Of a stretch of DNA of 64,000 nt, positions 11,936 through 42,493 are shown piece by piece. The position numbers and the translations under genes are program-made. The stretch lies in assembly GCA_003707115.1 (NCBI GenBank), contig PPNB01000003.1, forward strand, positions 310,001-374,000, read 5' to 3'. Source of the stretch: Tortispora ganteri (taxonomy: Eukaryota). The notes under the pieces are model-generated. The model was not told the origin of the DNA. It was given only the letters and a program-made list of their open reading frames with translations, and ran no database searches. Each line of letters begins with the position of its first letter. The first letter of the stretch is position 1.

Positions 11936-12180
11936 TCGCTAGTTTTAAGGTATTCACAGCTGCTACAACTCCTCTTTAAAATTTAATGACTATTATGAGT
12001 ATTAAAATAGTGGATACTGCTATATATCCACGCTTTTATGTATCTAATTTATCTTGCAAACGCGCAACTAAGAATATAAGTGTGACATTTTTGTAAATAT
12101 TACTTTATTGTAATATTATTAATAATAGCATAACATAGTAAACATGCCCAAAATGGGTATTGTCTTTTCGACTCTATATA

Positions 12181-12252
12181 GCTCACAGGGCGCGGTGGCT
12201 GCGCATGAGATTGCAGATCTCCAGGCCGTCGGTTCGAATCCGGCTGTGAGCT
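12181..12252 (+). tRNA. tRNA-Cys(GCA), intronless, with non-canonical G8/G14/U21
   Basis: Cloverleaf: acceptor GCTCACA/TGTGAGC, D stem GCGC/GCGC, anticodon GCA at 12213-12215, T loop TTCGAAT, discriminator T, followed by an oligo-T terminator. Confidence 0.9.
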
Positions 12253-12755
12253 TTAATTTTTATTTTAATTTTTTGGCTTTTAACTTCCTTGACGAGACCG
12301 TTTAATCCTTTGGCGCAGCCGGCTAACACGTAACTAATCGAAACTATCCGTGCTTCTTAAAATATATTCTTCATACTTGATTGCTTTTTATTTATGTTAT
12401 TAATTAACTAGAAAAGCGCTTGTATACGCTTAAAGAGCGTTATTGAACAATGAGATCTAAATCGGCTAATGTGTGGAGAAACCGGAGATCTTCCCAGCGG
12501 GTAGTTAGCCGTATGATTTGTATAGCCGAAATATGAGGTTATATATATTTAACCCTCGACTTCGTTTCTCACCAATACTTCGTATATATTATCTAGAATC
12601 TAGAATCCGGGAGAAACTTAGTTGTTTGAACTTTTATTTAGCTTCTTCTAGAAGAATTCGCCGCCGTCAGTTCTACGTGTAATATCTAGTTCACAAAAAG
12701 TAATTATTTGAAGGCAGAATCTCCTAAATATTGGTTCCTATAAAAAAATATCATT

Positions 12756-35441: not shown

Positions 35442-38231
35442 ATGGTGATGATAGATCCACCAGAAACATTGATGGAGGCAGATAACATAGATGGCTTCCC
35501 CCTTCATGGATCTGTAGCTCCTTCTTTGGACATTCTTAGTTCTGACTCTTTTATGAACTCAGATGCTGTTCCTCCAGATACTTCTATGCCTCCTAACGCC
35601 TCTAAGGACACAATGGTCAAGTTCACCATTTATGAAACATCTAAACATTGGTACATTGTTGCCTCCAATTCTGATGAATCTCGCTTTAGATGTCTTGTAA
35701 TTGATCTACTCGATTCTAATTACAACCTTTCTATACAAGAGAACTACATGATATATAATACAAAGTCAATAGGCTCCTATATTGACAACGTACGCAAACA
35801 CAATCCTGACTCGTTTCGTAAACGCATATCGGCATGGGGTCTAGTTGGATTTATACGCTTTACTGAACATTATTATTTATGCATTATTACCAAGAGAAGC
35901 CGCATAGCTATGCTAGGCGGGCATTACATTTACCATATAGATGCCACTGAGTTAATCCCTGTTTGTTATTCTCCCTCATATCACACCCCTGACAGGAAAT
36001 CGGAGGAGGCGAGATTCCTCTCCTCTTTTCATAATCTGGATTTATCCCGCACATTTTATTTTAGTTACTCTTACGATGTCACCAGCACACTTCAAAGTGT
36101 TCTAACTAAAGCTCGCAGGGCTGATGCAAGGCACTTGCACCAGTCTTCTGTAGCCGATTTTAACGACATGTACATGTGGAATCATCATTTGCTTGAGCCG
36201 TTTATTTCCAGCTGTACTCAACCTTTTGTATGGTGTGTACCAATAATTCATGGCTTTGTGGATCAAGTGAACTTGGGTGTTTACGGCAAGAACATATATA
36301 TCACCATCATTGCTCGAAGATCTCGTTATTTTGCTGGCGCTCGATTCCTCAAGCGAGGTGTGAACGACGCGGGGTATGTCGCAAATGAGGTTGAAACTGA
36401 ACAAATAGTTGCTGATATGTTGCTTTCTTCTTTTCACGATCCTAGATATGGCCAGTTCTCTAGTAGTAGATATACTTCTTTTGTTCAGCATCGCGGTAGT
36501 ATTCCGCTATTTTGGAATCAAGATACATCAGGAATGACTCCTAAGCCTCCGATTGAGCTGACTTTAGTTGATCCTTATTTCCGATCGGCAGCTTTGCATT
36601 TTGACGATCTATTTCGTCGATATCATACCCCGATTATTGTTCTAAATTTGATAAAGACGAAGGAACGCAACCCTCGCGAATCAATCCTGCTAGGAGAATT
36701 TGAACAGTGTATTGCCTATCTGAATCAGTTCTTGCCCCCCGAAAATAGAATTCTCTACACTTCCTGGGATATGAGCAGGGCTTCTAAGAGCGATGGGCAG
36801 GAGGTAATTAGCTTCCTAGAAGAGTACGCTGGACGTGTTCTCAATTCTGTTGGCTTTTTTCATAATGGAGGGGAGAAAGATCGGTTACAGCGCGGAGTTT
36901 GTCGTACTAACTGCATTGATTGTCTTGATAGAACAAATGCTGCACAGTTTGTCATTGGTAAAAGGGCATTGGCGTTTCAGCTTAAGGCGTTGGGGGTAAT
37001 TAGAGATACAGACATCCCCTATGATTGTGATGCTTCTAATCTTTTAACTGAAATGTTTCATGATCATGGTGATACTATTGCCTTGCAATATGGTGGCTCG
37101 CATCTTGTGAACACTATGGAGACCTATCGCAAACTCAATCAGTGGAGCAGTCATTCGAGAGACTTGGTCGAGTCTATAAAACGCTTTTACAGTAACTCTT
37201 TTGTTGATGCTCAACGTCAAGAGGCCATAAATCTTTTTCTCGGAAATTACGTCTGGGAAAAGGGGAAAGAAATGTTGTGGAATATGCCTACAGATTATTA
37301 CCTCCATCATAATAACGCTGTCCACATATCATCTTCTAAACGCCGCAGTTACAGGGTATGGTGGATTCCTCGAAATTTGTTTCCCTTTCCTGTTGAATTA
37401 AGATTTCCTGCCCCCATAAAACCTTTAAGTAATAGCGACTATTACGATGAATTTTACAGACCTCTTACATTGACTGCATTGCATAGCGAATACGCTAGTC
37501 GGATGAATTCATCTGTGAAATACCTCAACTCTTCAGTAGGCCAAACCCTGTTGGGATTAAAGGGCGGTTTAAGCCCGTTTGTTGTAAGAGGTGGACCTCT
37601 TGGTGATAATTCCGTGCTGCGCCTTGAAGGGCAGATAGATCCTAGAATTGTCGCAAAGACAAAAGAGGGGAAATCAAGGAAACAGAGGCATAAATTTGGT
37701 CAAAACATAGGTATTCGGAGCTGGTCTAAACTTTTACCATTACATTTGGGTAACCACAGAGCATCTGCAGCATTTGAGCCTATTCCTGATGCTACAGGGG
37801 GCAAAGCCATTGATGGAAAGTTTGCAGAAGCTCTTCCTGTGACATCCTCTACGCTGCAAAGCCTTACGAAAACTCCTGCGTGGGCTGCGAACCCGAATGT
37901 TATTCGTGCTGTGGAGCAAAGTCTGCAGCCATCATTAGATTCATTCGAGTTGAAGGAGTACGAGAAGTACGTTCAGCATCCATTAAAACTGTCGCAGGTT
38001 GCAGCAGTTATTGAGGAGAAGCCTAGTTCTTATGAAGAATTTGAACAATACGTGAAGAATAAAACCAGCGTATTTTCAGTGTACTCCTTTGGTGTGCATA
38101 ATGAATCTCTTGAGATATACGAAAAGCACGTGAATACCGAATTTCGAGCATTTTCAGAAGACGATAAAAAGAGTAAGCTGTATTCGAATTGGCTTATTCC
38201 ATATACTTGGCCTAGTACATTATCAGTCTAG
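35442..38231 (+). CDS. FIG4: PtdIns(3,5)P2 5-phosphatase (SAC domain)
   Basis: FYFSYSYD, ARRSRYFAGARFLKRG, VANEVETEQI, catalytic RTNCIDCLDRTN, HGDTIALQYGGS. Confidence 0.96.
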   Translation: MVMIDPPETLMEADNIDGFPLHGSVAPSLDILSSDSFMNSDAVPPDTSMPPNASKDTMVKFTIYETSKHWYIVASNSDESRFRCLVIDLLDSNYNLSIQENYMIYNTKSIGSYIDNVRKHNPDSFRKRISAWGLVGFIRFTEHYYLCIITKRSRIAMLGGHYIYHIDATELIPVCYSPSYHTPDRKSEEARFLSSFHNLDLSRTFYFSYSYDVTSTLQSVLTKARRADARHLHQSSVADFNDMYMWNHHLLEPFISSCTQPFVWCVPIIHGFVDQVNLGVYGKNIYITIIARRSRYFAGARFLKRGVNDAGYVANEVETEQIVADMLLSSFHDPRYGQFSSSRYTSFVQHRGSIPLFWNQDTSGMTPKPPIELTLVDPYFRSAALHFDDLFRRYHTPIIVLNLIKTKERNPRESILLGEFEQCIAYLNQFLPPENRILYTSWDMSRASKSDGQEVISFLEEYAGRVLNSVGFFHNGGEKDRLQRGVCRTNCIDCLDRTNAAQFVIGKRALAFQLKALGVIRDTDIPYDCDASNLLTEMFHDHGDTIALQYGGSHLVNTMETYRKLNQWSSHSRDLVESIKRFYSNSFVDAQRQEAINLFLGNYVWEKGKEMLWNMPTDYYLHHNNAVHISSSKRRSYRVWWIPRNLFPFPVELRFPAPIKPLSNSDYYDEFYRPLTLTALHSEYASRMNSSVKYLNSSVGQTLLGLKGGLSPFVVRGGPLGDNSVLRLEGQIDPRIVAKTKEGKSRKQRHKFGQNIGIRSWSKLLPLHLGNHRASAAFEPIPDATGGKAIDGKFAEALPVTSSTLQSLTKTPAWAANPNVIRAVEQSLQPSLDSFELKEYEKYVQHPLKLSQVAAVIEEKPSSYEEFEQYVKNKTSVFSVYSFGVHNESLEIYEKHVNTEFRAFSEDDKKSKLYSNWLIPYTWPSTLSV

Positions 38232-39767
38232 CAATAATATATCCATAAACTCCCTTTTCAGTGATATTAGATCTTGAGTGAACGATTCTTCTCTCACTAT
38301 CGCATCTAGTATTTGAAATATATATTGGATTTTCTGTTTTGAGTTTTCACTTATGCTAGAGTTTTCTTCTGAAATTGTCCTTTGACGGTACACCAAGCAG
38401 CTGTCGACAATATCGTACTTATATTGGTTAATTCTCGGCCAAGCAGTTTTAATAAGGCTTGTGAGCGCGTTTAGTGCTGAGTCTGCTAGTTCAGGGCTGG
38501 CTGTAATGAATGGATCAGCTAGGGTCTTCAACGGTATGTCCAATAGAGGCATCAAATGACGGATAATATAGATACCCATGGTGTCACAATAAATGGGAAT
38601 CTGATTAAGAATCAATATATGTATTGAAAGATTAGTGCCTGCCATGTTGTAAATTTTCAGCAATCCTTGCCGGATCACTGTTTCATCTAGCTGTGAAATA
38701 ATTTTGTCCTTTTGGAGATGTAGTGACTTTTTGGCCAAGCTATTGGCACACTTGAACGTGGCAGTAAGAAGAGCTGTAGACTCACTGGCTGGGGTCATTG
38801 GTGGTATAAAAGACATGTAATTTTGAATAGATTCCCAGTAAACATTATGGATGCCAGTTTTAGTCCAAAACTGATCCGAGATTACATCCAGCAGAGACTC
38901 GATGGCTATGCAACCTTGTATTCTGAACCAGGAATTTGTGTCATCTAGTAGATTGAGTGTTATCATTGTTATATCACGCCAATTGTTTTTAACCTGCGGT
39001 TCTGTGAGTAATGCTAGTACCGCAATAAAAATAGGCACACCCCAGTATCGTTGTACTAGTGCAGGGTCGCTTTCTTCTGTCGCATCATAAGTGCGGGGCT
39101 CTGTTAAAGAAAGTAATGGAACCTCTTTAGATATTCCAGAATTTAGTGGCTTAGTCTGTGCTTTGATATTTTTGAAGATCGGTACAACAATCTGCATGGT
39201 GATTGAACTTGCCTCTTCAGCAGATGCCATTATATTCAGAATGGGTTGAGGAGACTCAGAGGTCCAAGGGGCATCTGAACTGGCCCAAGCATTAATCATT
39301 AGAGACACTTTCGGATTAAATGATAAATTATGTGTATATAGGTTATTGGCAAGCTTCGTTGCTGCAGAGAAACAGCGAGTGAATGCCAACTGAACTGGCG
39401 ATGGTTTTCTGGTGAGACCTTGAGAATCGACATCGAACTGATTGATCCAGACTATAGGTATTGGTTTCATTAGGTGTGACAGTGCAAGTTGTAACTGATT
39501 TGATTCTTCATTACGTAAATCTGTATCTACTGATGTTAGAATAGAGTCGAAGATAGTAAGATACTGAGACAGTTTGTTGTAGAAAGACTGATCATTGAGA
39601 GTGGAAGGAGATTCTAGTGGAGCCGGTTCGACTAATGATTCAAGGGTTGTCGATAATTCTCTAAACCAGTGTTTATCTCGTTCTATGGTATCCAAATTGT
39701 CTACTGTAGCTTTCTCATCTATTGTAACTCCATCAAGGAATTGTTTCAGTAAAACATTCAATAACAT
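38223..39767 (-). CDS. TTI2: Tel2-interacting protein Tti2-like (ARM-type)
   Basis: LNLLDD..FRIQGC, TGIHNVYWESI, LADPFIT, LIKTAWPRI patterns resemble the Tti2 family; first ATG 39767. Confidence 0.75.
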   Translation of the reverse strand: MLLNVLLKQFLDGVTIDEKATVDNLDTIERDKHWFRELSTTLESLVEPAPLESPSTLNDQSFYNKLSQYLTIFDSILTSVDTDLRNEESNQLQLALSHLMKPIPIVWINQFDVDSQGLTRKPSPVQLAFTRCFSAATKLANNLYTHNLSFNPKVSLMINAWASSDAPWTSESPQPILNIMASAEEASSITMQIVVPIFKNIKAQTKPLNSGISKEVPLLSLTEPRTYDATEESDPALVQRYWGVPIFIAVLALLTEPQVKNNWRDITMITLNLLDDTNSWFRIQGCIAIESLLDVISDQFWTKTGIHNVYWESIQNYMSFIPPMTPASESTALLTATFKCANSLAKKSLHLQKDKIISQLDETVIRQGLLKIYNMAGTNLSIHILILNQIPIYCDTMGIYIIRHLMPLLDIPLKTLADPFITASPELADSALNALTSLIKTAWPRINQYKYDIVDSCLVYRQRTISEENSSISENSKQKIQYIFQILDAIVREESFTQDLISLKREFMDILLLD

Positions 39768-40020
39768 GCGAACCAAAAGCAGCAAGGTGTAATGAGAAGA
39801 TGGTAGGCTGAAGTCCCCAATTTCCCAATCAGGACAACTACATAGTTAAATGCACCTTTTTGTTGCGTTTTATCAGAACAATATAATTTTATGAAAATGA
39901 CAAGATATATTTATATAAATATATTAAACATTAAAACCCCAAAGTAAGTACAAAAGAATATCAATTACTATTATCACATAAGAAGGAAAGGATGGCGGGA
40001 GGATAGTGGTGGGTGCAGGC

Positions 40021-40411
40021 AGAGTTCGACTATTGCGATATGTTACTTTCCAAGAGTCTTTGTCAAAATAAACTCTGGCACCATCCTAAGTCAGTCTGTT
40101 GGCTGAGAGGATGTTTATATTTCCTAATTCAGGAAATGTGCGTACTTTGGAGAGTTTCAATGTACGATAGCCTTGAAGTGCAAGTGCTGTCGAACCAATT
40201 AGGTCTGAGAATGTGTTGTATCCTCCAAACTGCATATTTATGCCGTTTGCGCGTTCGACTGTCTTTTAAAGCATTGTCCACCACTTACGCGAGCAGATGC
40301 ACCACTGTCAAAGATCCAAACATTTCACGATGAGATTGTCTTTCGGTTTTGATGGATGCATTGAGCGTAGTAAATTGCAATGTGACAGGATCAAATTTCG
40401 GATTCCACAGT
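40021..40411 (-). pseudogene. Decayed copia-type aspartic protease (pol 5' remnant)
   Basis: WIFDSGAS (DSG at 40309-40301) in the gag frame after TGA stops; then a shifted frame VERANGINMQFGG...LKLSKVRTFPELGNINILSANRLT*DGARVYFDK. Confidence 0.8.
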
Positions 40412-41590
40412 TCAGGGACTCGATTTTTGGGACGAATTTTGCTTTGATTTGGATCGATCAAGGGCGTGACATTCTTGGGCAGAGTGTCCTTGTTTGAAGC
40501 AGAATTTGCACGTGATTGGACCAGCAATATTCCGATTTGAGCGACCTCGTTTCTTCTTGGAATTCTTGGAGATTTTATACGAGGATACAGGCTGATTTTG
40601 ATGAAGTACAAACGGCCTGGAAGTTGTCGAATTGCCACTGTTATGGTAAAATTTGGCACATTGAAAATATCTGTCAGTGATTGACTGTATAGAAGGGGCA
40701 CGCTCACCTCTTTTGTAAGCCTCGTCCACTTCATCAGTCATTTTCGAAACTATCTCTGACACAGAGAAGTTTGTTGGCAGGATTTGCAACAAGTGATTGA
40801 TGACAGTGTAGTTGTAGCAAGGCTTAAGAGTATAGATTCTACGTGCCATTATCAAGTACTCTCCCACTGCATCTGTTACTTCTTTAAAGGTTGGATTAAA
40901 GTTGTTAATCCTAAAAGACATGATTTGAGTCATCAAGTCATCAGCAGCTTGTCCGCTTGAGGCATAAGTACCAATGCACGCTCTGTACATAATTTGACGC
41001 AAAGTTGGAGTAGTATGTCCACGAATTGTGCCCAGTTGATTGGCATATTCAGGCGGGCCAGATAATTGGCGTTCAATTTGGTTTAGAGAACTTGGAGTGA
41101 TAATTTCAGAAAGAACCAATTTGGCTTCATTATGTTCAATAAAACGCCAATCTCTTGGAAGTCTTAGGCCATCAGTGGAAATGATTGAATGTTCTTCCAA
41201 ATAAGGATCTTCGTGTATCCAACGAGAAAGCTTTGAATTACCTTGGCTTGAATTTTTAAGATAAAGTCTTCTTGTTAAGAGAGCCAAAACATCGACATAG
41301 GTTTCACCATTTAGAACACATGGTTTCTCGTTGAGGGGATAGGGAAATTTAAGTCCTTTTCTTAAAGAGATAGATAAGTTTTTGGAGTTGATCTGTTCAA
41401 GTTTTGTTATTGCTTCGGAAGTGCTATAAAGATCATGAATTTCTTCTCGAGTTAGCAAGGCAGGGTCAGAAAGACGTGAGGATGCTGTAGGAACCTCAGA
41501 TGCTTCTGAAGCATCAAGGTTATTGTCTGCTCCGGTTGAAACTTCTTCACCTTGAATGTTGCGACGGCCACGTCCTCGAGTTTCAGTCAT
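40412..41590 (-). CDS. Retrotransposon Gag-like protein, 392 aa, with CX2CX4HX4C zinc knuckle
   Basis: ATG 41590 lies 7 nt after the PBS; uninterrupted ORF; basic linker KKKRGR then CKFCFKQGHSAQEC. Confidence 0.85.
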   Translation of the reverse strand: MTETRGRGRRNIQGEEVSTGADNNLDASEASEVPTASSRLSDPALLTREEIHDLYSTSEAITKLEQINSKNLSISLRKGLKFPYPLNEKPCVLNGETYVDVLALLTRRLYLKNSSQGNSKLSRWIHEDPYLEEHSIISTDGLRLPRDWRFIEHNEAKLVLSEIITPSSLNQIERQLSGPPEYANQLGTIRGHTTPTLRQIMYRACIGTYASSGQAADDLMTQIMSFRINNFNPTFKEVTDAVGEYLIMARRIYTLKPCYNYTVINHLLQILPTNFSVSEIVSKMTDEVDEAYKRGERAPSIQSITDRYFQCAKFYHNSGNSTTSRPFVLHQNQPVSSYKISKNSKKKRGRSNRNIAGPITCKFCFKQGHSAQECHALDRSKSKQNSSQKSSP

Positions 41591-41610
41591 TGATATTTCG
41601 GCTTTTAACC

Positions 41611-42044
41611 TGTCGGAAAACTTAGATTGGTATATCTTAACTTTAGGGTTGTGAGCACGATGAGAGAAACTACCTGTAAGTACGTGAAGTATCAAGAAGA
41701 GAGAAACCTTGACCTGTAGTGAAGTTGGGGCTAAAACCCTCTGATCGGTACGTTATTTAGATAGAGTAAGATGAGTTAGTGATGCAGATGTCTAAATCTG
41801 CTGAGAAGTGATTCTCCTGTCTTCAATTTTTCTCGCCTGGTCAGGGACAATTTTGATATCTATTTATAACGTTAGTGGGTATCTGAAGGTTACGCCACTA
41901 AAAGTGGATCAAAGAATTATTTTAGGTTCTCTAGTGTGTGATACGAGAGAGCTCAGAAGTATGCATTGGAAGACTGTTGCTAAGGGCATAGTTCCGGAAC
42001 CTTAAACCTAGCACTGCAACTCCCATTCGCAGCCTTGCATGACA
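41611..42044 (-). repeat. 5' LTR of the gag element (gag-proximal end firm; distal end tentative)
   Basis: TGTC...GACA termini; TATAAATA on the minus strand at 41868-41861; similarity to the second copy at 42078-42493. Confidence 0.7.
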
Positions 42045-42077
42045 TAAGTCGAACCCGCTTCGTATACAAATACGAAA

Positions 42078-42493
42078 GCATACTTCTGAGCTCTTTCGGA
42101 TCACACACTAGAGACCTCAAAAAAAAAAGGGCTTATGCACATCGCATAATGATGTACTAAACACATAGTGGTGTGATTATACGAATCCCACTGAATATTA
42201 TAGATAGACGTCAATTTGTCTTTGATCAAGAGACAGAGATTGAATAGTCAACAAGCGTACAGTGACAAGCTTCAGTTCAAAGTCTAGCTTAAGACACAGA
42301 CCGCTCCCCTGCAGATTAAGACATCTGCATTGCTAAGTCAGTGTACTTTATCAAGAATATTGTACGACAAGAGGTTTTTAGCCCAGACTCAACTCCGTGT
42401 CAAGGTTTCCCTCTTTCTAACACTTACACGCAGTTTCTCTCATTGTGCTCAAAACCCTAAACAACATTACCATATCCGGGTAGTATTCCAACA
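42078..42493 (+). repeat. Diverged solo/partial LTR of a related family, inverted relative to the first
   Basis: Reverse complement aligns collinearly to 41611-41965 (CTCTAGTGTGTGAT, GAGCTCAGAAGTATGC, TGAGAGAAACT, GAAACCTTGAC, TTTAGGGTT); ends TTCCAACA; no PBS after it. Confidence 0.75.

What the first reader, a model, noticed from the sequence alone, without database searches (positions are those of the whole stretch)
41597..41612. Primer-binding site matching the anticodon arm of tRNA-Lys(UUU): half-tRNA priming with an unusual primer
Seen: on the minus strand the LTR end ...TTCCGACA is followed directly by GGTTAAAAGCCGAA. Its complement TTCGGCTTTTAACC (41597-41610) reads as tRNA positions ~27-40 with anticodon TTT, and matches my recollection of the spliced yeast tRNA-Lys(UUU) arm. 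Known: Ty5 and Drosophila copia prime from the anticodon region of tRNA-iMet (PBS GGTTATG...), and Candida Tca2 from a tRNA-Arg fragment. Inference: this family primes from a 5' half of tRNA-Lys(UUU). I do not recall that primer being described in yeasts, but cannot confirm novelty.
Basis: partly seen in the sequence, partly recalled or inferred. Interest (0 to 1): 0.72.

Follow-up and report, generated by a model that had tools for sequence, protein, structure and literature searches.

The report
Retrotransposon primer site matching lysine tRNA
A decayed jumping-gene copy in a budding yeast carries, exactly where such elements dock their primer, 14 bases that pair perfectly with the anticodon arm of lysine tRNA (UUU), which suggests a half-tRNA primer not reported for yeasts but is only a modest extension of a known trick.

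Summary
On the minus strand a 355-bp LTR (41965-41611) ends ...TTCCGACA. It is followed directly by GGTTAAAAGCCGAA (41610-41597), a 6-nt spacer and a 392-codon gag ORF with a CCHC knuckle.

A diverged inverted LTR copy (42077-42493) loses similarity exactly after ...TTCCAACA, which fixes the LTR end.

The 14-mer lies, letter for letter, inside a published antisense probe for mature S. cerevisiae tRNA-Lys(UUU) (PMC3568405). It therefore pairs with tRNA positions 27-40. Nucleotide 40 is the printed start point of half-tRNA ("hemivirus") priming (PMC1181622).

Self-priming and chance are not supported.

Limits:
- This copy is a relic: no pol beyond a broken protease remnant, and no 3' LTR.
- No host genome was held, so neither the host tRNA-Lys(UUU) nor the site in other copies could be read.
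- The Ty1/copia assignment rests on motifs only.

Novelty is moderate. Half-tRNA primers iMet, Arg(UCU) and Ile are in print. The fungal FunCo1 copia clade already has a site matching an internal part of a tRNA-Lys (PMC5445492). I found no Lys(UUU) half-tRNA site for yeasts. Verdict: a new variant of a known kind.

The parts
41611..41965 (-). 5' LTR (LTR A), 355 bp, TGCATAC...TTCCGACA. Its 3' end is well fixed. Its 5' end is set only by where similarity to LTR B begins.
   Evidence: The 3' part (about 41546-41836) is multi-copy in the organism's contigs (table 2). TATAAA at 41868.
41597..41610 (-). Putative primer-binding site GGTTAAAAGCCGAA, antisense of tRNA-Lys(UUU) positions 40 to 27
   Evidence: Contained exactly in the S. 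cerevisiae tK(UUU) probe printed in PMC3568405.
41591..41596 (-). 6-nt spacer ATATCA between the site and the gag start codon. The base after the site (A) would not pair with G26 of the tRNA.
40412..41590 (-). Intact gag-like ORF, 392 codons plus TGA. CCHC knuckle CKFCFKQGHSAQEC at 40510-40469.
   Evidence: The only homologue is P0001. No Pfam family passes its cut-off. Protein-atlas leads point to zf-CCHC clusters and one copia-type gag cluster.
39990..40411 (-). Decayed start of pol. DSGAS (aspartic protease motif) lies at 40309-40295 in the gag frame, behind three in-frame TGA stops (40414-40412, 40393-40391, 40327-40325). A protease-tail-like stretch follows in another frame with a further stop. 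The element ends near 40000.
   Evidence: The motif reading is mine. Pfam and a protein search gave no support.
42077..42493 (+). Diverged LTR of the same family (LTR B), head to head with LTR A, ending GTATTCCAACA and followed by unrelated sequence (no such site)

Best explanation
The locus is a truncated copy of an LTR retrotransposon, probably of the Ty1/copia kind. It consists of a 5' LTR, a primer-binding site, gag and a broken protease start. The rest of pol and the 3' LTR are gone. The 14 bases directly after the LTR are the family's minus-strand primer-binding site. In active members, the proposed course is this. A 5' fragment of mature, spliced cytoplasmic tRNA-Lys(UUU), cut in the 3' strand of the anticodon stem after nucleotide 40, anneals through its last 14 nucleotides (27-40) to this site. 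Reverse transcriptase extends its 3'-OH through U5 and R to make minus-strand strong-stop DNA, as in Ty5 and copia but with a different tRNA. The complementarity stops at position 27. That is what one expects if plus-strand strong-stop synthesis copies the primer back only as far as the blocking m2,2G26. Shown: the sequence, its place at the LTR end, the perfect match and register to the S. cerevisiae tRNA, and the gag context. Inferred: that the host tRNA has the same arm, the cleavage, the priming, the role of G26, and the superfamily. In this particular copy the site is a fossil.
For: (1) The site abuts the LTR's terminal CA. That boundary is confirmed by a second LTR, whose similarity ends at the same base. 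(2) The 14-mer is contained exactly in the antisense probe for mature S. cerevisiae tK(UUU) printed in PMC3568405. With the anticodon at 34-36 this is positions 27-40, which includes the 7-base loop CTTTTAA and G30,G31/C39,C40 of the stem. (3) It occurs once in 128 kb of sequence, and 0 of 100 shuffles contain it. A fixed 14-mer at a fixed place has odds of about 1 in 2.7e8 per tRNA and register (my arithmetic). (4) Its first base pairs with nucleotide 40, the nucleotide from whose 3'-OH hemiviruses start cDNA synthesis (PMC1181622). (5) It is followed 6 nt later by a gag ORF with a CCHC knuckle and then DSGAS. The gag N-terminus MTETRGRG is shared with the only homologue. (6) The family is multi-copy in the organism: 52 and 53 contig pieces of runs X1 and X2 were laid at 80% or more. 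(7) S. cerevisiae tRNA-Lys(UUU) is a Trm1 (m2,2G26) substrate (PMC10275265), and the match ends just before G26. (8) In a plant survey, half-tRNA sites were found only in Ty1/copia elements (PMC6317226). The family's LTR terminus ...CAACA is the Ty1-like type (PMC4139406).
Against: The host's tRNA-Lys(UUU) was not seen: no genome is held, and the window has only tRNA-Cys. Only one copy of the site could be read; the contig tables do not print the bases at 41597-41610 for other copies. This copy cannot transpose, having no RT or IN and no 3' LTR. The Ty1/copia assignment is unproven: no Pfam family passes for gag or the protease remnant, and no pol-bearing relative was found. The LTR's 5' end (TGCAT...) does not mirror the 3' end beyond TG/CA, and no target-site duplication could be checked. 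In S. cerevisiae this tRNA carries mcm5s2U34, and t6A37 is described for tRNA-Lys(UUU); both lie inside the paired stretch and might hinder pairing or copying. I recall that the iMet primer of known hemiviruses also has t6A37. No RNA or small-RNA data were available.
Confidence: 0.7

Rival explanations
1. Chance or fossil resemblance. The 14 bases are just leader sequence of a dead element, and the family uses another primer or none.
For: Only one copy of the site was read. The element is decayed. A 2-mismatch look-alike at 12272-12285 shows that loose matches occur by chance.
Against: The match to a real tRNA is an exact 14 of 14, at the one place where such a site belongs, and in the hemivirus register. 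0 of 100 shuffles hold the 14-mer.
Confidence: 0.06
2. Tf1-like self-priming. The 5' end of the element's own transcript folds back on the site and is cut to give the primer. The LTR contains a tRNA-like 11-mer (GGGTTTTAGCC, 41739-41729) that is also kept in LTR B (42373-42383).
For: That 11-mer differs from the tRNA-sense 11-mer at 2 positions and lies downstream of a TATAAA. Self-priming is known in Tf1 (PMC7175516) and is predicted for some plant copia lineages.
Against: Such 2-mismatch 11-mers are no more common than chance: 13 found, 16.65 expected. The longest exact complement between the LTR and the site plus spacer is 6 nt; 397 of 500 shuffled LTRs reach 6 nt or more, and 230 give exactly 6. 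The predicted fold does not pair the two and is no more stable than shuffles, z = +1.31. Tf1-type priming needs perfect complementarity (PMC5445492).
Confidence: 0.03
3. The site binds the anticodon arm of tRNA-Lys(UUU) but not as the primer's 3' end. It might serve tRNA capture or packaging, or act as a decoy for tRNA halves, while priming happens elsewhere.
For: Complementarity alone cannot tell pairing from priming. No other candidate site was tested experimentally.
Against: There is no TGG-type site in the 30 bases after the LTR. The site abuts U5, as a priming site must for strong-stop synthesis. The register is nucleotide 40, as in proven half-tRNA primers.
Confidence: 0.06
4. The same mechanism with a different source RNA: a host RNA that shares the arm, such as another tRNA isodecoder or a tRNA-derived repeat, rather than cytoplasmic tRNA-Lys(UUU).
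For: The host's tRNA set was not seen.
Against: The loop CTTTTAA with U33 and a purine at 37 is the anticodon loop of a UUU-reading tRNA. The whole 14-mer equals the S. cerevisiae tRNA-Lys(UUU) arm.
Confidence: 0.05

Closest known systems
Hemivirus-type Ty1/copia elements (Ty5, copia, 1731, Osser): half-tRNA-iMet priming
   Same: The site lies directly after the 5' LTR and is complementary to the anticodon arm, not the 3' end, of a tRNA. cDNA synthesis starts from nucleotide 40 (PMC1181622; PMC5371799; PMC10275265). Here the first base of the site also pairs with nucleotide 40.
   Different: The tRNA is an elongator, Lys(UUU), not initiator Met. PMC12711049 calls the iMet anticodon-stem site diagnostic of the Ty5 family, so this element is not Ty5 by that criterion. 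RT was not available for a tree.
FunCo1 clade of Copia elements in filamentous ascomycetes (Donnart et al. 2017, PMC5445492)
   Same: A fungal copia lineage whose site (printed as ATTAAGAGTCT) is complementary to an internal region of a tRNA-Lys gene. This is a precedent for half-tRNA-Lys sites in fungi.
   Different: By my reading of the printed 11-mer, its complement holds the loop CTCTTAA, so it is the CUU isoacceptor with pairing starting at position 39. Here it is UUU, starting at position 40, with a different stem, in a budding yeast. Kinship of the proteins could not be tested, because no FunCo1 sequences were held and this copy has no RT.
Candida albicans Tca2-type elements: internal tRNA-Arg(UCU) site
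   Same: Budding-yeast LTR elements with sites homologous to an internal region of an elongator tRNA (PMC4139406).
   Different: A different tRNA. Per that review, the C. albicans classes are internal Arg(UCU), internal iMet, and the 3' ends of Ala, Gln, Ile and iMet. There is no Lys.
Plant Bianca lineage (1/2 tRNA-Ile) and Osser, Bryco and Gymco-II (1/2 tRNA-Met)
   Same: They show that half-tRNA priming has switched tRNA more than once within Ty1/copia (PMC6317226).
   Different: Plant elements, other tRNAs.
Tf1 self-priming (S. pombe)
   Same: A site next to the LTR that does not use a tRNA 3' end.
   Different: Tf1 needs the first 11 transcript bases to match the site (PMC7175516). Here the best LTR complement is 6 nt, which is chance level.

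Membership tests
Half-tRNA-primed Ty1/copia elements (genus Hemivirus in the ICTV sense) | Site adjacent to the 5' LTR, complementary to the anticodon arm of a tRNA, with the primer's 3' end at about nucleotide 39-40 | tested here: met
   14 of 14 pairing with positions 27-40 of S. cerevisiae tRNA-Lys(UUU), directly after the LTR's CA.
Half-tRNA-primed Ty1/copia elements (genus Hemivirus in the ICTV sense) | The host's own tRNA carries the complementary sequence | not testable with these tools
   No genome held. Only tRNA-Cys in the window.
Half-tRNA-primed Ty1/copia elements (genus Hemivirus in the ICTV sense) | Ty1/copia-type pol (integrase before RT, RVT_2-type RT) | tested here: inconclusive
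   Pol is missing from this copy beyond a DSGAS remnant. Pfam is silent. No pol-bearing relative was found. There is a weak atlas lead to copia-type gag.
Half-tRNA-primed Ty1/copia elements (genus Hemivirus in the ICTV sense) | A tRNA 5' fragment is actually used as primer | not testable with these tools
   Needs strong-stop cDNA or small-RNA data.
Ty5 family | [quoted passage not shown] | tested here: not met
   The paired loop reads anticodon TTT (Lys), not the Met anticodon.
FunCo1 Copia clade | Site ATTAAGAGTCT, as printed in PMC5445492 | tested here: not met
   The site here is GGTTAAAAGCCGAA. Clade membership by RT tree is not testable, as this copy has no RT.
Conventional 3'-end tRNA priming (Pseudovirus, Ty1 type) | A site beginning TGG at or within a few bases of the LTR end | tested here: not met
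   The 30 bases after the LTR contain no TGG.
Tf1-type self-priming elements | About 11 bases of the transcript's 5' end perfectly complementary to the site | tested here: not met
   The longest LTR complement is 6 nt, as in shuffles. The fold does not pair them.
LTR retrotransposon (general) | LTR bounded by TG...CA and repeated in the genome, followed by gag with a zinc knuckle and an aspartic protease motif | tested here: met
   The second LTR of this copy is absent.

The most novel reading that the evidence does not exclude
A budding-yeast copia-like lineage, related by its gag only to a Tortispora caseinolytica protein, has moved half-tRNA priming from initiator Met to the elongator tRNA-Lys(UUU). 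I recall that this is the same tRNA species whose 3' end primes HIV-1. The primer would be a 40-nucleotide 5' fragment of the spliced tRNA with a heavily modified loop. The site's length (27-40) would be set by the m2,2G26 block. If so, the anticodon-stem cleavage that makes hemivirus primers is not specific to tRNA-iMet, and primer switching among half-tRNAs is easy.
Probability: 0.55. Interest if true: 0.45.

Novelty: new variant of a known kind. Interest (0 to 1): 0.36.

Why it matters
Half-tRNA priming is the trait that separates hemiviruses from other Ty1/copia elements, and how the tRNA half is made and chosen is still poorly understood. A lineage using tRNA-Lys(UUU) would add a fourth tRNA to the printed list (iMet, Arg(UCU), Ile). 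With FunCo1's tRNA-Lys site it would suggest that lysine tRNAs are recurrent choices in ascomycetes. It would also offer a natural test of two questions: whether the cut after nucleotide 40 depends on the tRNA's identity, and whether m2,2G26 sets the site's length. For annotation, LTR-finding pipelines that look only for 3'-end or iMet-half sites would call such elements site-less. The finding does not change any major picture, and it rests on one decayed copy.

Tried and rejected
- Whole genome of the window: none held.
- Other notes of this scan: nothing on this genome or sequence; word searches gave nothing relevant.
- Other tRNA genes in the window: only tRNA-Cys.
- 3' LTR or further family copies in the window: none beyond LTR B.
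- Sequencing runs: 2 of 6 listed runs hold the stretch, and no RNA holder is listed.
- Contigs of X1 and X2 laid at 80%: 52 and 53 pieces, family multi-copy, but the printed tables do not give the bases of other copies at the site. X3 and X5 laid nothing.
- Relatives of gag: 1 protein among 3552 candidates; 1 hit in 1.84 billion representatives; none among shorter proteins, 542 candidates.
- Protease remnant against longer proteins: none of 61 candidates.
- Metagenome scan with gag: 247 pattern matches, 0 confirmed. Viral contigs: 36 matches, 0 confirmed.
0 had a CCHC knuckle or a D[ST]GA[ST] motif downstream, so they look like chance hits. 37 of the 117 had only about 300 bases of flank.
- Pfam on gag and protease pieces: nothing above cut-off.
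- Structure of gag: mean pLDDT 33.3, unusable, no fold search made.
- PDB sequence search: one hit at E 0.13, meaningless.
- Bacterial-type promoter and terminator scan of the LTR: nothing, and not apt for a yeast.
- Near-match beside tRNA-Cys (12272-12285): no LTR context, chance.
- Papers not held: Neuveglise et al. 2002 and Ke et al. 1999. I saw their titles only in reference lists.
- Supplement file 3 of PMC5445492 could not be searched.
- Searches for the 14-mer or 11-mer in papers gave only the S. cerevisiae probe and unrelated primers.

Full report
**Observation.** On the minus strand the sequence reads ...AAGTTTTCCGACA GGTTAAAAGCCGAA ATATCA ATG....
- The 14-mer occupies 41610-41597. 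Its + strand form, TTCGGCTTTTAACC, is at 41597-41610.
- The exact 14-mer occurs once in the window on both strands, and none of 100 dinucleotide shuffles contains it.
- With two mismatches allowed there is one more match, at 12272-12285, next to the window's only tRNA gene, tRNA-Cys(GCA) at 12180-12253. That match has no LTR-like sequence in front of it, and I take it as chance.

**Anatomy.** The 14-mer sits in a truncated LTR retroelement on the minus strand.
- LTR A runs from TG at 41965 to CA at 41611, 355 bp, with a TATAAA at 41868.
- Directly after it come the 14-mer, a 6-nt spacer, and an ATG at 41590. That ATG opens an intact 392-codon ORF ending in TGA at 40414-40412.
- The ORF has a C-X2-C-X4-H-X4-C knuckle (CKFCFKQGHSAQEC, 40510-40469).
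- In the same frame, behind three TGA stops (including the one that ends gag), lies DSGAS (40309-40295), the aspartic protease motif. A stretch that I read as a protease tail follows in another frame and holds a further stop.
- Near 40000 the element ends. An AT-rich spacer and a host gene of the Tti2 family follow (38223-39845, Pfam E 1.4e-35). There is therefore no room for integrase or RT, and no 3' LTR exists anywhere in the window.
- Pfam gives no family for gag or the protease pieces. The gag and protease readings therefore rest on motifs and order, plus a weak protein-atlas lead: fungal CCHC clusters, and one copia-type gag cluster at 0.90.

**The LTR boundary.** A second, diverged LTR of the same family (LTR B, 42077-42493, + strand) lies head to head with LTR A, about 110 bp away.
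- In the alignment the two are similar from (T/A)GCATACTTCTGAGCTC... to ...TTCCRACA and unrelated from the next base on: GGTTAAAAGCC... after A, GTATGCTGTTA... after B.
- Contigs of two public runs of the same organism (X1 and X2, about 10 Mb each) show that the LTR tails and parts of gag are multi-copy. 52 and 53 pieces were laid at 80% or more; of the 52 pieces of X1, 19 were under 90% alike.
- Three other contigs carry an LTR tail whose printed 30 letters end ...GTATTCCAAC, the table's print limit.
- The 3' end of the LTR is thus well fixed. The 5' end is fixed only by where A and B begin to align, and no target-site duplication could be checked.

**The tRNA.** No genome is held for this window, so the host's tRNA-Lys(UUU) could not be read.
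- A full-text search for the 14-mer found one paper, PMC3568405. I read the passage with its oligonucleotide table. Its Northern probe for S. cerevisiae tK(UUU) is printed as TGACATTTCGGTTAAAAGCCGAACGCTCTACCAAC. The window's 14-mer is contained in it exactly.
- The probe is antisense to the tRNA. Its complement holds the 7-base loop CTTTTAA with anticodon TTT. With the anticodon numbered 34-36, the 14-mer pairs with positions 40 down to 27.
- The two bases on either side do not continue the match. The element has CA where the probe has TC, and A where the probe has C (opposite G26).
- A 14 of 14 match to a real tRNA arm, at the single place where a primer site belongs, cannot reasonably be chance.
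- The simplest reading is that the host's tRNA-Lys(UUU) has the same arm. That step is inference.

**Register and mechanism.**
[quoted passage not shown] Here the first base of the site pairs with nucleotide 40.
- PMC10275265 (passages read) reports three relevant points. The copia primer is a 5' tRNA-iMet half. m2,2G26 is present in 21 of 22 characterised S. cerevisiae cytosolic tRNAs with G26, and tRNA-Lys(UUU) is among the Trm1 substrates. This tRNA carries mcm5s2U34.
- The end of complementarity at position 27 fits copying of the primer up to a blocking m2,2G26 during plus-strand strong-stop synthesis. That m2,2G stops reverse transcriptases is my own knowledge, not a call.
- I also recall, without a call, that S. 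cerevisiae tK(UUU) genes carry an intron after position 37. If the host's genes do too, the first three bases of the site pair with the 3' exon, and the primer must derive from spliced tRNA.

**Rivals.**
- *Self-priming of the Tf1 kind* needs the transcript's first 11 or so bases to match the site (PMC7175516; PMC5445492). The longest exact complement between LTR A and the site plus spacer is 6 nt; 397 of 500 shuffled LTRs reach 6 nt or more, and 230 give exactly 6. An LTR 11-mer that resembles the tRNA arm (41739-41729, also present in LTR B) is one of 13 such two-mismatch hits in the window, against 16.65 expected. The predicted fold of the leader does not pair it with the site and is no more stable than shuffles, z = +1.31.
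- *A conventional TGG site* is absent from the 30 bases after the LTR.
- *A misplaced LTR boundary* is excluded by the alignment.

**Relatives and host.**
- The only protein relative of gag is P0001, a 330-aa hypothetical protein named by NCBI for Tortispora caseinolytica NRRL Y-17796. It is 56% identical by BLASTP and shares the N-terminus MTETRGRG. It was the only hit among 3552 word-sharing candidates and in all 1.84 billion representatives.
- The host is therefore probably this yeast or a relative. I did not pursue its identity further.
- Searches for family copies in metagenomes and viral contigs found none.
None had a knuckle or protease motif downstream, so they look like chance hits.

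**What is in print.**
- Passages read: C. albicans site classes are internal Arg(UCU), internal iMet, and the 3' ends of Ala, Gln, Ile and iMet (PMC4139406).
- An iMet anticodon-stem site is called diagnostic of Ty5 (PMC12711049; also PMC13017519).
- In plants, half-tRNA sites are 1/2 tRNA-Met (Osser, Bryco, Gymco-II) or 1/2 tRNA-Ile (Bianca), and only in Ty1/copia (PMC6317226).
- The ICTV profile separates hemiviruses by their short tRNA segment (PMC8515867).
- Most relevant is PMC5445492. [quoted passage not shown] By my reading, its complement contains the loop of the CUU isoacceptor and starts at position 39.
- An internal tRNA-Lys site therefore has a fungal precedent, though with another isoacceptor, another register, and outside the budding yeasts.
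- My ten full-text searches found no Lys(UUU) half-tRNA site in yeasts.
- The key survey of yeast LTR elements (Neuveglise et al. 2002) and Ke et al. 1999 are not held. Repbase and GyDB could not be consulted, and one supplement file of PMC5445492 was not searchable. The absence is therefore not proven.

**Verdict.** It is untested for the host tRNA, for other family copies and for function, and the copy at hand is a fossil. It is a new variant of a known kind and of moderate interest.

Noticed in passing
window 42077-42493 (+) and 41611-41965 (-): Two diverged LTRs of one family lie head to head about 110 bp apart (75% identity over 161 bp of the tails, 88% over 51 bp at the heads). LTR B has no primer site or internal region after it and looks like a solo LTR. 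Repeated insertion at one spot, or a rearrangement, is possible.
   Followed up: partly
window 40325-40414 (-): Between gag and the DSGAS motif, in the same frame, there are three stop codons, and all three are TGA (counting the one that ends gag). This could be decay, or a remnant of a read-through arrangement. I did not pursue it.
   Followed up: no
window 40412-41590 (-): The gag ORF is intact (392 codons) although the rest of the element is destroyed. Its only relative in 1.84 billion representative proteins is a gag-only 330-aa protein of Tortispora caseinolytica that lacks the knuckle. It is an orphan gag lineage. Whether gag-only copies are kept for a reason is open.
   Followed up: partly
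window 41729-41739 (-) and 42373-42383 (+): Both LTRs keep an 11-mer (GGGTTTTAGCC, GGTTTTTAGCC) that differs at two positions from the tRNA-sense 11-mer of the site. By frequency this is at chance level (13 found, 16.65 expected) and it is not paired with the site in the predicted fold.
   Followed up: yes
window 42029, 42138, 42147: The contigs of both public runs differ from the window at these three bases in the stretch between and within the LTRs, while the rest of that 815-base contig is identical. These could be strain differences or assembly errors.
   Followed up: no
window 12180-12253 (+) and 12272-12285 (-): tRNA-Cys(GCA) is the only tRNA gene in the window. 20 bases behind it lies a two-mismatch look-alike of the 14-mer with no LTR context, which I judge to be chance.
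   Followed up: yes
window 35442-38231 (+) and 38223-39845 (-): The host genes flanking the relic are a SacI-homology-domain phosphoinositide phosphatase (Pfam Syja_N, E 9e-88) and a Tti2-family protein. The relic ends about 200 bp upstream of the Tti2 gene's start.
   Followed up: no
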